Assembly: GCF_964213995.1 (NCBI RefSeq)
Contig: NW_027590192.1
Span: 1-64,000 of the forward strand
DNA length: 64,000 bases
Direction of reading: 5' to 3'
Source of the DNA: Mustelus asterias
Lineage: Eukaryota
Numbering within the stretch: position 1 is the stretch's first letter; every line of letters begins with the position of its first letter. Of the stretch, positions 1 through 62,850 are shown piece by piece. Both the position numbers and the translations under genes were made by a program. The notes beneath the pieces were generated by a model that was not told the DNA's origin, did not search any database, and was given only the letters and a program-made list of their open reading frames with translations.

Positions 1-2
1 AA

Positions 3-191
3 GCACATCAGCGCAGTCACACTGGGAAGAGTCTGTTCATCTGCACCGCGTGTGGGAAGAGTTTTAGTCGAATGTTCAACCTTCGCACTCACCAGCGACT
101 TCACACTGGGGAGCGGCCATTCACCTGCTCTGTGTGTATGAAGGGATTCAGCAGTTCATCTCGCCTGCTGAAACACAAGTGTGCTCACTAA
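3..191 (+). CDS. 3' end of a C2H2 zinc-finger gene (5' part outside window); further out-of-frame finger remnants run to ~312
   Basis: Frame from nt 3: [65 protein letters not shown] at 189-191. Confidence 0.8.
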
Positions 192-1199
192 CTCATCTGA
201 TCTCCTGATACACCAGCGAGTTCACACCGGGGAGAGGCCGTTCACCTGCTCCATGTGTGGGAACAGATTCACTCAGTCACAAAACCTAATGAGACACCAG
301 CGAGTTCACAAGTCTGGAGGCAGATTCCCCAGTTATTGAACAGGTAATCACATCCTGCACTGACCCATGTGCATTCTGATAGCTATGGTGTGTTTCTGCT
401 GCTGTTAATAACTGCTGTAACCAGCTTGAGTTAACAATTCAGGTATTTGTTCAAGTTCAGATGGACTAATGGATCAACCAGGGTCTAATTGAATAACAGA
501 GCAGACTTGAAGGGGTGAACAACCTATTCCATTTCCTGAGTAGTCTCTCCACAGGACTCTCCTACTCTTTAACTCTGCTCCATCGCTGGTTCCTGGTGAA
601 GTGTCTTCTCCCCACTTAAGAACAAAGAAAAGTACAGCACAGGAACAGGCTTTCCATTTATCAGCTGGTGTTTCTGCTGCTGTTAATAACCCTATAACCA
701 GCTGGAGTTAACTGTTCAGCTATTTGTTCTTCAAGTTCAGAAAGACTAATTGATCAGCCAGAGTCTAACTGAATGACAGAGCAGACTCAAAAGGCTGAAT
801 GAGCTACTCCATTTCCTGTGTTGTTTCCCCCCCGGGCCTCTCCCACTCTCTAACTCTGCTCCAGTGCTGGTTTCTGGTGAAGTGTCTTCCCCCCCAGTTC
901 TCCCATCACTTTCCATTCATCAGCTGGTGTTTGAGCCCAAGTTTATTGGGAACAGGAGGAAATCATTTCTCCCCCTTGAGCCTGTTCTCTTATTGACTGG
1001 GGTCACGGCTGATCTGTGACCAAACTCCATTTACCTAGATATTGTTTTAATCCTGACTTCCCCAGTCTGTTACAATGTGATTTAAAAATAACTTTGATTT
1101 ATATCAGACCCTTAATGTAGGAGAGTGTCCCAAGGTGAATCTCAGAAACATCAACTGACAGAATCAGACAGAACGTAACACTGAGGAACACGATAGGAA

Positions 1200-1990
1200 G
1201 GATGTGATTGCACTGGAAAGAGTGCAGAGGAGAGTCACCAGCATGTTGCCTGGGCTGGAGTGTTGGGAAGGCGATTTATTATCTAAATGGGGAGAGACTT
1301 CAGGGTGCTCCAGTGCAGAAGGATCTGGGTGTCCTCGTTCACCAGTCACAGAAAACCAGCATGCAGGTACAGCAGATTATAAAGAAAGTGAATGGAATGT
1401 TGGCGTTTATAGCTAAAGGATTAGAATATAAATGTAAGGAACTATACAAGGCATTGGTGAGGCCGCACCTGGAGTATTGTGCACAGTTTTGGTCCCTTTA
1501 TTTGAGGAAAGTTGTAGTGGCATTGGAGGCAGTTCAGGGGAGGTTCACCAGATTGATTCCAGAGATGACGGGTTTGTCGTATGAAGAGAGAGAGGCCTAT
1601 ACTCTCTGGAATTTAGAAGAATGAGGGGAGATCAAATTGAGGTGTACAAGATGATAAAAGGTATGGATAAAGTAGACGTGGAGTGGATACTTCCTCTTGT
1701 GGGGTATTCTAGGACAAGAGCTTATAGTCTTAGGATAAGGGGCAGCAAATTTAAAACAGAGTTGAGGAGAAACTACTTCTCCCAAAGGGTTGTGAATCTG
1801 GAATTCGCTACCCTGAAGTGCGGTGGATGCTGGGACAGTGAGTAAATTTAAGGAGGAGTTAGACAGATTTTTAATTGGTTATGGGGAGAAGGCAGGAAAA
1901 TGGGAATGAGGAGCATATCAGCCATGGTCGAATGGCAGAGCAGACTCGATGGGCCGAATGGCCTAATTCTGCTCCAATATCTTATGAACT
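1200..1990 (+). mobile_element. 5'-truncated, degenerate CR1 (HER1-like) LINE 3' end
   Basis: ORF fragments [26 protein letters not shown]1 3' UTR gatgggccgaatggcctaattctgctcc. Confidence 0.85.
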
Positions 1991-2489
1991 TAACACAGAC
2001 TTAAATGTATTCAATGACCAAGCCTACTACTTACTGGAGAAGGGATTTCCAAAGACTAATGATCTTCATAGAGAATACGTTTCTCCTCATGGTGTAAACT
2101 GAGACCTCTTATTTTCAACTGTTCCATAATTGGATATTACCCCATGAGGGGAAACATCCTCTCAGAATCTACCCGGTCAAGCTCCCCCAGGATCTAATAT
2201 GCTTCACCAAGATCACCTCTCATTCTTCTGAATTCCAATGGGTAAAGACCCAACCTGTTCCACCTTTCCTCAGAAGCCAAACCCCCTCATCACAGGAGTC
2301 AGCCTAGTGAACATTTTCTCATCTGCTTCCAATGAAAATGTGTCCCAGCTTAAGTAATCCTGAGCCAGAAAGCAGGCAGACACAATGTTGTGAATTTCTA
2401 TCCTGGACTGAGAGTGATGGGTTTTGGAAACTTATTTTACATGGGTTAGAAGGGGAGGATTTACCCACAGCAAACTGCAATCAAGTGAA

Positions 2490-60537: not shown

Positions 60538-61844
60538 GGTGCGGGTGTCCTTGTGACTCTCCAGGTTAAACAATCAGTTAAATCTCACACAGAACACGGG
60601 TACAGTCTCTCCCCGCTGTGAATGCTGCGATGTATTTTCAGGCTGTGTAACTGGTTAAAGCTCTTTCCACACTCAGTGCACTGGAACACTCTCACTCGGG
60701 TGTGTGTATCTCAGTGCATTTCTAGTAAAAGTGATGTTTACAATCTTTTGAAGCCAAGAGGCCAAACAAATATTTCTCCTGCTAGATTCAAAGGCCGATG
60801 ATATTCAGGTCTCAAGAAGTCGAGTCACTCTGTCAGATCTCGATGTGATGTTGGAGATTTCTGTCTGATTTCTCCTTGTCTAATATCCTGTAAGTCAATT
60901 TAGAAAAAAAATCACAATTCAGAATACGATCAATATTCAAATCTACATTTCTAGTTTATGGAGCGTTCATTAAAGACACAGTCATGGAGCATTAAACTTG
61001 CCCAGCAGGGCCTCCCGTATCAGCACACAGGCAGCTGCTTTGTGAGACTGCCGGCAGTACAGACAAGTCAGAGATAAGGGTGTCCTCAGAAGTGGGATTC
61101 ATTGTGAAAGCTCAGGGACGGTTGATAAGATGCAGCAATTCTATGATTCTAATGAACGTTCTTTCCTCTCCCATTTCCCAAAAGACGTGAGCCTCCATCC
61201 CGCACACTCTCCCTCCATTCTCACTCTGCTGTATCTAATATTCACCCTCCCAATTCTCCTGAAGGTGCTGATTGAGGCTGATTGACAGATCCATGCTCAC
61301 TGCTTCCTGTCCAGCACAGAAATCAGAACAAATAGGCGCTGCAGTCAGCATTCGGCCCATCGAGTCTGCTCAACCATTCATTCAGATTATTGGTTGATCT
61401 ACCTCTGCATTATTTTCCCCACACTGTCCCCCATATCCATCGATATCGTCAATATCTAGAAACCTATCAATCCCTCTCTTGAAAATTCTTGATGACTGAG
61501 GCTCTATAGTCCTCTGCGGTAGAGAATCCAAAACATCACCACATCCTTGAGTGAAGAAATCCTTCCTCATCTGAGCTTTCTCTCCATTTTCCAGCCTGTT
61601 CCCAATAATTATTGACTCCCTTGTCATTCAAAAACTGTCTAACTCATCCTTGAATATATTCAATCCCTCCACTGGGAGAGAAATCTAGATACTAACAATT
61701 CTCTGAGGGAAGAGATTGTTGGAAATATATAATATAGCTGCAGTCCAAAATTACACAGCCAGATATAATAAGTGTATTTTATTACAGAGCTATAAATAAT
61801 ATATCTAATCTGTACCATATAACAACAGGGGAGCTGATCGACTC

Positions 61845-62050
61845 GTGGTATTATTGCTGGACTATTAATCCAGAAACTCAGCTAATGTTCTGGGGACCCA
61901 GGTTCGAATCCTGCCACAGCAGATGGTGGAATTTGAATTTAAAAACAAAATCTAGAATTAAGAATCTACTGATGACCATGAAACCATTGTCGATTGACCA
62001 AAAAAACCCATCTGGTTCATTAATGTGCTTTAGGGAAGGAAATCTGCCAT
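61845..62050 (+). mobile_element. SacSINE1-like SINE truncated by a ~535-bp deletion relative to block A
   Basis: ctgccatc|tcctggggaaacc joins the equivalents of ~40768 and ~41301. Confidence 0.75.
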
Positions 62051-62287
62051 CTCCTGGGGAAACCAGCCCTTTAATTGTGAACATTAGGATAGGGACATTT
62101 TTGCCAGACAAATCAATGTGTCAAGCTGAGGGAGAAAATGACTTTATGAGAGAGAGAGAGACCTGGGCCAACCTTTCCAGAGTCTGCAGCCTCCCTGGAT
62201 TCACTTCCTTTCCCTTCAGTTGCTGCAAATCCCCAATTTTCCCCAGAATGAGAAAAGAAATTGAATGGTGCAAAAAAAAACTGTTTT

Positions 62288-62850
62288 ACTCACAGATGTT
62301 GGAGAGACAGAAGGAAGTTTAAGTCTGTCTGAAGCTCAATCTTAATTCAGAGAGAGAGCAGCAGCTTTGCTGGGCACGAGTGAGCAGCTGAACAAGCTCA
62401 TTGCCCACTTCCGCATTCAGACAATAGGGGAGCTCTGATTGGCTGGAGGACCCGAGCCCTTCCGGTCCTTCCACTCTTCCCATTGGCCAATACCTCAGCA
62501 TGAAGGTCAAAGGTGGGCACTCCCTCGCACATGCGCAGAGTCCCTTCTCCCTTGGACATGCGCAGTCCTAGGCCAGGGGTGGAGGGGGGAGATCACCGAG
62601 CGGCTTCTCGCTCTGGCCGGAGCCGTCAGCCGGTTGCCTGGAAACCTTGGCTCGAGGAGGTGCAGGGGGAGGGGAACAATGGTGGGGGCGGGGCTCCCGG
62701 GTCCGCGCGCCCGGGCCTGCACACTGGAACCCGGAGACGTCACCGCGTAGAATTCTGATTCCTATTGGCTGATTCAGGCAGCGCTCCGTTGTGACGTCAC
62801 AATGTGGACGGTAGCCAATGAGCTTCAGAGCGAAACTCCCTCCTCTGTCC
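62288..62850. promoter_or_regulatory. bidirectional ZNF promoter, homologue of 15075-15560
   Basis: CATGCGCA x2, CCAAT boxes, TTGTGACGTCACAA 62789-62802, CACTTCCG. Confidence 0.8.

What the first reader, a model, noticed from the sequence alone, without database searches (positions are those of the whole stretch)
1..62850. Effector-less ZNF family whose start codon was created inside a finger linker, leaving fossil fingers as 5' UTR
Seen: seven genes (ATGs at 13101, 17964, 25803, 39251, 46331, 51593, 60537) begin MEK(P/L/R)W(K/N)C, with ATG in strong context (mostly accATGG) at the Gly position of the TGEKP linker. Upstream in the same exon lie a spacer and 2-3 recognisable fingers broken by stops and frameshifts (e.g. 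17730-17960, 51360-51590). Gene 3484 keeps the intact linker (HTGEKLWKC) and the preceding finger, but its spacer (VLEEEDLQSGN*...) is also broken. No KRAB/SCAN/BTB exon is visible. Known: tetrapod KRAB-ZNF clusters repress transposons. Inference: an expanding shark family of finger-only proteins that could repress by occlusion or through an unknown partner; a role against transposons is a hypothesis.
Basis: partly seen in the sequence, partly recalled or inferred. Interest (0 to 1): 0.7.

Follow-up and report, generated by a model that had tools for sequence, protein, structure and literature searches.

The report
Shark finger-only zinc-finger gene family
Thousands of shark genes carry three dead zinc fingers in front of a start codon that sits in a former finger linker, so they likely make bare DNA-binding finger arrays with no known silencing domain; what they bind, and whether they restrain transposons, is untested.

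Summary
All seven ATGs sit at the Gly position of a finger linker, behind a broken spacer and three fossil fingers in the same predicted exon. The family is huge: 2,402 exact matches to a degenerate 24-base start motif in this genome. The ATG marks a sharp boundary: 41 of 43 copies carry a frameshift in the 183 bases before it, 1 of 43 in the 183 after. No effector domain was found upstream or downstream. The new start arose once and is old: galeomorph and squalomorph sharks share it. A smaller sister group keeps the Gly linker and starts elsewhere. Loss of an ancestral effector is not shown. Additions: the first translated finger is a near-invariant, atypical module, and a 66-base non-coding block holding a TALE-factor site is the most conserved part of the cassette. 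Transposon targeting and translation are untested. This scan noted the same family before on other DNA (e1-9534447, e1-9248146, e1-9092452). Verdict: new variant of lineage-specific tandem zinc-finger expansions; interest 0.5.

The parts
1..312 (+). 3' end of a ninth finger array, cut by the start of the contig
   Evidence: 3 C2H2 matches at 42-309; the window is the start of contig C160
3375..3483 (+). Leader of the Gly-linker (type B) gene: predicted acceptor and spacer broken by stops
3484..4521 (+). Type B ORF, 345 aa: starts MEGKS in the spacer, third finger intact, linker TGEKL (GGG at 3595), then the WKC finger
12343..13101 (-). Type A ORF, 252 aa, 9 fingers
13102..13452 (-). Fossil leader (spacer and three dead fingers) of gene 13101
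15080..15560 (.). Predicted bidirectional promoter (CCAAT boxes, GCGCATG motif) and short first exon; donor of gene 13101 at 15080
   Evidence: function inferred from motifs
15752..15787 (+). Truncated copy of the conserved block, with the decamer at 15778, upstream of gene 17964
17612..17963 (+). Fossil leader of gene 17964
17964..19130 (+). Type A ORF, 388 aa, 12 fingers, frameshifted last finger; no effector family in Pfam
25221..25286 (+). Conserved 66-base non-coding block with the TALE decamer
25455..25802 (+). Fossil leader of gene 25803
25803..26705 (+). Type A ORF, 300 aa, 10 fingers
38332..39251 (-). Type A array; ORF 39251-38856 (131 aa, 4 fingers), then a frameshift; probably a decaying copy
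39252..39601 (-). Fossil leader of gene 39251
39960..40025 (-). Conserved 66-base block
45837..46331 (-). Type A ORF, 164 aa, 5 fingers
46332..46688 (-). Fossil leader of gene 46331
46857..46922 (-). Conserved 66-base block
48089..48823 (.). Predicted bidirectional promoter of genes 46331 and 51593, with their short first exons (donors at 48220 and 48824) and a possible 60-base exon at 48089-48148
   Evidence: catshark gene models P0169 and P0170 use like exons
50815..50880 (+). Conserved 66-base block
51242..51592 (+). Fossil leader of gene 51593
51593..52351 (+). Type A ORF, 252 aa, 9 fingers
59164..60537 (-). Type A ORF, 457 aa, 16 fingers, dead fingers behind it
60538..60887 (-). Fossil leader of gene 60537
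61246..61311 (-). Conserved 66-base block
62293..62850 (-). Predicted promoter and first exon of gene 60537 (donor at 62293)

Best explanation
These genes belong to a family of over two thousand copies whose reading frame stays intact only from an ATG in a former finger linker, so they likely make finger-only proteins that are predicted to read varied DNA repeats and may dock a partner through their near-invariant first finger. Shown: gene anatomy, copy number, a selection boundary at the ATG, no known effector domain, constraint on the finger backbone, fast change at base-contacting positions, and a distinct first finger. Inferred history: an old shark gene with a spacer and at least four leading fingers split into two groups. 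Type A lost fingers 1-3 to stop codons (among them CGA to TGA in finger 3) and gained the linker ATG. Type B deleted fingers 1-2 and starts in the spacer. Both keep the WKC finger. Whole cassettes (promoter, short non-coding exons, TALE-site block, finger exon) then multiplied by local and segmental duplication, with many copies decaying. Inferred and untested: translation, DNA targets, repression and the partner.
For: Frameshifting indels in 41 of 43 aligned copies in the last 183 leader bases and 1 of 43 in the first 183 coding bases (the 43 were chosen on the acceptor, not on an intact array). In 664 kb of contiguous DNA, 59 of 66 type A anchors keep the ATG and 46 of 66 have the ATG plus at least 4 in-frame fingers. 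All 46 have purine at -3 and G at +4. Leader ATGs average 3.1 against 7.6 in shuffles, and the main ATG is the first strong one in 31 of 36. A stop lies at codon -13 in 45 of 66 type A anchors, where 3 of 4 type B anchors have CGA (hand count). 30 of 30 other loci have an in-frame stop within 150 codons upstream. No effector family in 96 upstream frames or in 20 spacer-bearing proteins; 23 of 46 ORFs end within 2 residues of the last His. Backbone pN/pS 0.23; positions -1, +3, +6 give 1.67, 2.06, 1.44 (54 finger pairs from 19 gene pairs); 350 different fingerprints in 556 fingers. First finger: Pro+1 45 of 46, Ser+2 45 of 46, Glu+5 43 of 46; its motif is in 39 of 46 first fingers, 0 of 359 later fingers and 0 of 117 non-shark proteins.
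Against: Neither nor one search listed a clean splice joint into the finger exon. The runs laid as RNA are only guessed to be RNA and come from other organisms, so expression, start sites and translation are not shown. The helix excess is not significant against local synonymous sites (1.19, p = 0.3), position +2 is conserved (0.55), and arrays diverge about three to four times faster than the leaders used to pair them, so finger shuffling may mimic selection. 20 of 66 copies lack the ATG or 4 in-frame fingers. Leaders still hold about 3 upstream ATGs, and in 9 of 36 an upstream frame overlaps the main start. Fossil fingers 2 and 3 show pN/pS of 0.53 and 0.41 in the old frame, which is unexplained, although wrong-frame controls elsewhere also reach 0.5. 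Copies share ancestry, so counts are not independent. The first finger could be invariant because it binds one shared DNA site rather than a protein.
Confidence: 0.6

Rival explanations
1. Finger-only proteins act by occupancy alone: they block transcription-factor or promoter sites with no cofactor, and the first finger is just one more DNA-reading finger.
For: Fingers and linkers make up a median 94% of each protein, and no effector was found. Positions -1, +3 and +6 of the first finger do vary.
Against: The first finger has Trp, Pro+1, Glu+5 and mostly hydrophobic -1 and +6 residues, unlike the later fingers, and both subfamilies and many sharks keep it.
Confidence: 0.2
2. The family is mostly a self-amplifying segmental array: a few functional genes and thousands of passenger copies, without any targeting of transposons.
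For: Near-identical paralogues and long shared segments between contigs; paired type B genes recur on many small contigs, some of which may be assembly haplotypes; 20 of 66 copies are broken; 41 copies have ACG or ACA in place of ATG.
Against: Frameshifts are almost absent behind the ATG even among old paralogues; backbone pN/pS is 0.23; fingerprints are very diverse.
Confidence: 0.12
3. A short, unrecognised effector exon (like the 28-residue FiNZ) is spliced to a cryptic acceptor within the 36 bases between the last stop and the ATG, or the spacer is made as a separate small protein.
For: FiNZ itself had no similarity to known domains (PMC10547256, section 4), so a Pfam blank is weak. The 66-base block is open in one frame and can be read between AG and GT in 18 of 34 matched copies.
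Against: The block lacks the AG in 13 of 34 copies, has frameshifting deletions in 4, and the variants listed are mostly amino-acid changes. First-exon ATG frames are inconsistent: 7 none, 4 stopped, 6 phase 0, 5 phase 2 of 22. Only 10 open spacer stretches passed the filter in the window and 120 loci. Contigs of runs guessed to be RNA run unspliced from the array through fossil fingers 3 and 2 (table 8; weak).
Confidence: 0.08

Closest known systems
KRAB zinc-finger gene clusters of tetrapods (PMC10547256 passages; PMC3971581 passages)
   Same: Clustered, fast-duplicating genes with one exon of tandem C2H2 fingers behind a spacer; conserved backbone, variable base-contacting residues; many pseudogenes.
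   Different: No KRAB exon; the spacer and three leading fingers are dead leader; the start lies in a finger linker. The whale shark paper reports KRAB-box families among those lost in cartilaginous fishes (PMC8455134 passage).
FiNZ zinc-finger genes of cyprinid fish (Wells et al. 2023, PMC10547256; passages, section 4, supplement rows)
   Same: A lineage-specific expansion to hundreds or thousands of clustered copies outside tetrapods; signs of fast change at the helix. The paper's supplement counts 3,586 zinc-finger ORFs in S. canicula and 1,851 in C. carcharias.
   Different: FiNZ genes have a conserved 28-residue acidic first coding exon; here no upstream exon can reach the fingers in frame. 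The paper's main text never mentions shark, skate or cartilaginous fish and does not describe this anatomy.
'ZNF-only' polydactyl genes (Liu et al. 2014, PMC3971581 passages)
   Same: Tandem finger ORFs with no KRAB, SCAN or BTB; hundreds of models per tetrapod genome.
   Different: Those are a mixed, partly incomplete set. This is one clade of thousands with a shared linker-derived start, fossil leader and invariant first finger; 'shark' does not occur in that paper's main text.
TALE (Pbx-Prep) DECA elements (PMC6023610 passages)
   Same: The conserved block holds an exact reverse copy of the DECA motif, which Prep and Pbx occupy at blastula stage in zebrafish.
   Different: No CCAAT box lies directly beside it in the block; binding in sharks is untested; that paper found most DECA elements not sufficient as enhancers.

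Membership tests
Tandem Kruppel-type C2H2 zinc-finger genes (PF00096, PF13465) | Array of C-x2-C-x12-H-x3-H fingers joined by TGE(K/R)P linkers | tested here: met
   closest solved structures are ZFP568, a designed finger protein and PRDM9 arrays
KRAB-ZNF | KRAB domain exon spliced in frame upstream of the array | tested here: not met
   0 of 96 upstream frames (conserved blocks only, not whole introns) and 0 of 20 spacer-bearing proteins hit KRAB; stops and frameshifts lie between acceptor and ATG
KRAB-ZNF | TRIM28-dependent silencing of transposons | not testable with these tools
   needs binding and knock-down data
SCAN-ZNF or BTB-ZNF | SCAN or BTB domain in frame | tested here: not met
FiNZ-ZNF | Conserved short acidic N-terminal coding exon in frame with the array | tested here: not met
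   No FiNZ profile was searched; but first-exon and block frames are not conserved as coding and cannot reach the fingers in frame
FiNZ-ZNF and KRAB-ZNF (works-like test) | Positive selection at base-contacting positions | tested here: inconclusive
   pN/pS 1.47 against all synonymous sites (p = 0.0002), 1.19 against local ones (p = 0.3)
FiNZ-ZNF and KRAB-ZNF (works-like test) | Binding to transposon sequences; expression at genome activation | not tested
ZNF-only polydactyl genes | Two or more tandem fingers and no known effector in the ORF | tested here: met
TALE DECA-CCAAT element | Exact DECA decamer | tested here: met
   6 sites in the window, one upstream of each of 6 of the 7 type A genes
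TALE DECA-CCAAT element | Adjacent CCAAT box and Pbx-Prep occupancy | tested here: inconclusive
   no CCAAT directly beside the decamer in the block; occupancy untested

The most novel reading that the evidence does not exclude
Sharks police their retrotransposon-rich genomes with thousands of finger-only proteins in which an invariant first zinc finger has taken the place of KRAB as the cofactor dock, switched on together in the early embryo through a shared TALE site: a third, independent route to sequence-specific repeat control after KRAB and FiNZ.
Probability: 0.2. Interest if true: 0.82.

Novelty: new variant of a known kind. Interest (0 to 1): 0.5.

Why it matters
Large zinc-finger families outside tetrapods are counted but poorly understood, and how they act without KRAB is an open question. 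Sharks have one of the largest such families, and here its anatomy is clear enough to test: one shared start, one candidate docking finger, one candidate control element, and variable reading fingers. It is also a clean case of a gene family whose new start codon left its old front end as readable leader across distant shark lineages. Annotation pipelines mis-model it: several database proteins translate the dead leader.

Tried and rejected
Run search for RNA: no RNA holder listed on record; rows were guesses. Laying contigs on 11800-19500 was swamped by repeats. On 46290-48330 no clean splice joint was among the 15 of 73 joints shown. Summed depth there was lower over the block and intron than over the finger exon in the three guessed-RNA runs relative to a probable DNA run; the tool warns that depth cannot rank parts of a gene, so this is not used as evidence. 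Word-indexed protein search with the spacer found 1 unnamed protein among 7 candidates. The exact Gly-linker 27-mer gave 0 hits; a degenerate form gave 77. ESM Atlas gave no result. ACG as the ancestral state of the start was considered and rejected: ACG/ACA copies need 5 changes on the tree, and several are near-identical sisters of ATG copies. A three-exon coding leader still in use was rejected. Rfam: 0 matches in the window. A C-terminal effector in these ORFs was rejected: long tails are frameshifted or degenerate fingers. One profile hit (P0166, an ankyrin-repeat protein) is spurious. A recalled precedent for finger-mediated recruitment of a histone methyltransferase (ZNF512) was not found in the library and is not used. 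No structure or complex prediction was run, because no partner is known.
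Full report
Observation. A six-frame scan finds nine finger arrays in the window. Each has a predicted acceptor 348-357 bases upstream. Aligning the seven with gene 3484 puts the ATG on the GGG of its TGEKL linker. The consensus of 43 family members reads as a spacer, three finger relics with three stops (TAA, TGA, TGA) and then the start. 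Named protein relatives point to a shark.

Family size. An exact 24-mer over the start occurs 853 times in the own genome, the reversed control 0 times. A slightly degenerate version occurs 2,402 times. A degenerate Gly-linker pattern occurs 77 times. These are counts of motifs, not of genes: some small contigs may be haplotype duplicates, and long segments are shared between contigs at 90-99% identity. For an unbiased sample I took 664 kb of contiguous DNA from three contigs (window). BLAST gave 75 anchors; I dropped 5 internal linkers and 4 Gly-type genes, leaving 66. Of these, 59 have the ATG and 46 have the ATG plus at least 4 in-frame fingers.

The ATG is the functional boundary. Among the 43 of 66 copies whose acceptor was found 300-420 bases upstream, 41 have a frameshifting indel in the last 183 leader bases, 32 in the first 178, 20 in 109 intron bases, and 1 in the first 183 coding bases. 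Shared deletions inflate the leader counts, but the contrast is large. All 46 intact copies have a strong start context. In the 36 with a mapped leader, upstream ATGs average 3.1 against 7.6 in dinucleotide shuffles, strong ones 0.14 against 0.75, and the main ATG is the first strong one in 31. Against this, 9 of 36 have an upstream frame that overlaps the start. A stop sits at codon -13 in 45 of 66 copies (hand count), and 30 of 30 further loci have an in-frame stop within 150 codons. So an upstream exon spliced to the main acceptor cannot reach the fingers.

No effector found. Pfam finds only finger families in the three ORFs scanned. It finds no effector in 96 open frames of at least 28 residues from the conserved upstream blocks; six had weak unrelated hits below cut-off, and whole introns were not scanned. 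23 of 46 ORFs stop within two residues of the last His; long tails are broken fingers. A profile of the spacer hit 34 of 1.84 billion representatives. Of 20 looked up, 18 are named and all are sharks; 2 are unnamed; one further hit is a spurious ankyrin protein. What precedes the spacer in these proteins differs from one to the next; the few matching pairs are translated intron or close paralogues. None of 20 scanned has KRAB, SCAN or BTB. Two catshark gene models join short upstream exons like those of the window straight to the spacer (P0169, P0170); these are predictions whose RNA support I could not see.

History. Type A (linker ATG) and type B (Gly linker) are separated by a branch with 100% SH-aLRT in a quick tree of 76 rows (midpoint root, no outgroup). 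24 of 30 Gly-linker loci start at an MEG-like ATG in the spacer, lack relics 1-2 and keep finger 3. Type B has CGA where type A has the -13 TGA (3 of 4 anchors). Gly is taken as ancestral because it is the general linker residue (established knowledge). Copies with ACG or ACA (41 in the genome; 20 fetched) are scattered among ATG copies and are secondary. Proteins starting M(E/G)KPW occur in sawshark, basking shark and houndshark, and sawshark and horn shark models end at the same place in relic 1. The event therefore predates the split of the two shark superorders, some 250 million years ago (date recalled). None of 9 ray or skate hits has the WKC linker, a small sample; one skate protein has a similar helix. 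Whether the ancestor had an effector is open: the 41-codon spacer is open in frame in the consensus, but so are 5.4% of shuffles, and the ancestor may already have started at the MEG position.

Selection on the arrays. In 54 position-matched finger pairs from 19 of 21 close gene pairs, backbone pN/pS is 0.23 (Cys and His are fixed by the search pattern, and pairs were capped at 15% backbone distance). Positions -1, +3 and +6 give 1.67, 2.06 and 1.44; +2 gives 0.55. Pooled, the four give 1.47 against all synonymous sites (p = 0.0002) but 1.19 against local ones (p = 0.3). There are 350 fingerprints in 556 fingers. This fits diversifying DNA recognition but does not prove positive selection, since finger shuffling is likely.

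Two additions. First, the first translated finger is a module of its own: Trp 44 of 46, Pro+1 45, Ser+2 45, Glu+5 43, with mostly hydrophobic residues at -1 and +6. Its motif is in 39 of 46 first fingers, 0 of 359 later fingers and 0 of 117 non-shark proteins, and both types keep it across sharks. The Trp was partly fixed by my anchor; the helix residues were not. It is the best candidate for a built-in partner dock, which is an inference. Second, a 66-base block 530-590 bases upstream of the ATG is the most conserved part of the cassette: diversity 0.039 against 0.10 for the adjacent intron, 0.16-0.22 for the leader and 0.29 for fourfold sites in 22 genes (the genes were chosen for having the block). 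It is in 34 of 66 type A copies and 0 of 30 Gly-linker loci. A 29-mer from it occurs 1,236 times. It tolerates frameshifts and loss of its AG, so it is probably regulatory. It contains the DECA motif that Prep and Pbx bind at blastula stage in zebrafish (PMC6023610, passages). Gene conversion is an alternative cause of its conservation. Fossil finger 2 is also slower than intron (0.055 against 0.128), unexplained.

Expression. No run is on record as RNA. Contigs of three runs guessed to be RNA, from other organisms, cover the array and continue unspliced through relics 3 and 2 (table 8); this is weak. No clean splice joint was listed.

Literature. Wells et al. (PMC10547256; passages, section 4, supplement rows; supplement files 3-5 not searched and may bear on this) count thousands of finger ORFs in sharks but do not mention sharks in the main text. 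The whale shark paper (PMC8455134, passages) notes loss of KRAB-box families. Liu et al. (PMC3971581, passages) list ZNF-only genes in tetrapods. The catshark genome paper (PMC11979771) has 0 hits for zinc finger, ZNF or C2H2 in a term search. Searches (listings only, open-access library) found no description of this anatomy. Earlier notes of this scan describe the same family on other DNA; they are unchecked, and I tested their main points independently. Neither a sequence nor a word look-up found a note on the conserved block.

Verdict. A real, very large, old shark family of finger-only genes with a once-made linker start: a new variant of lineage-specific tandem zinc-finger expansions. Its function is untested. 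Interest 0.5; the novel reading has probability 0.2 and would deserve 0.82.

Noticed in passing
window 41620-43234 (-) and 62853-63023 (+): A Tx1-like retrotransposon end (family name from recall and earlier notes) abuts the first exon of gene 39251, and a fragment of it lies at the promoter edge of gene 60537. In the 664-kb sample, 4 of 22 first-exon donors are directly preceded by the same element end. This agrees with earlier notes of an element that targets these exons.
   Followed up: partly
window 31694-35571 (-): A near full-length CR1-like LINE with two long open frames (1005 and 326 codons); class judged by eye, not searched.
   Followed up: no
window 40026 and 61312 (-); several loci: Homology of the conserved block often begins exactly at its first base, after different repeat-like sequences, as if elements inserted repeatedly at this spot.
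   Followed up: no
L016, L019, L025, L027: Derived copies in which the promoter is joined directly to fossil finger 2, about 225 bases from the ATG, losing exons, block and spacer; 3 of the 4 have long intact arrays.
   Followed up: partly
L122, L127, L129, L131, L133, L135, L140: A near-identical group with ACG in strong context and an intact 11-finger frame: either non-AUG initiation or a recently amplified dead copy.
   Followed up: partly
L035:2432-2700 (+): A type B gene whose spacer is open from the acceptor through the array, a place where an upstream coding exon could still join; an LTR-retrotransposon-like fragment lies upstream.
   Followed up: partly
window 28530-31570 and 53659-56694: A 3-kb mostly non-coding element present twice at 92% identity, with further copies on another contig.
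   Followed up: no
window 62966-63860: Fragments resembling a Penelope-type retroelement (class recalled, not searched).
   Followed up: no
P0124 (skate protein): Has a finger with the Pro+1 and Glu+5 pattern of the shark first finger but no Trp linker, a hint that the module is older than sharks.
   Followed up: no
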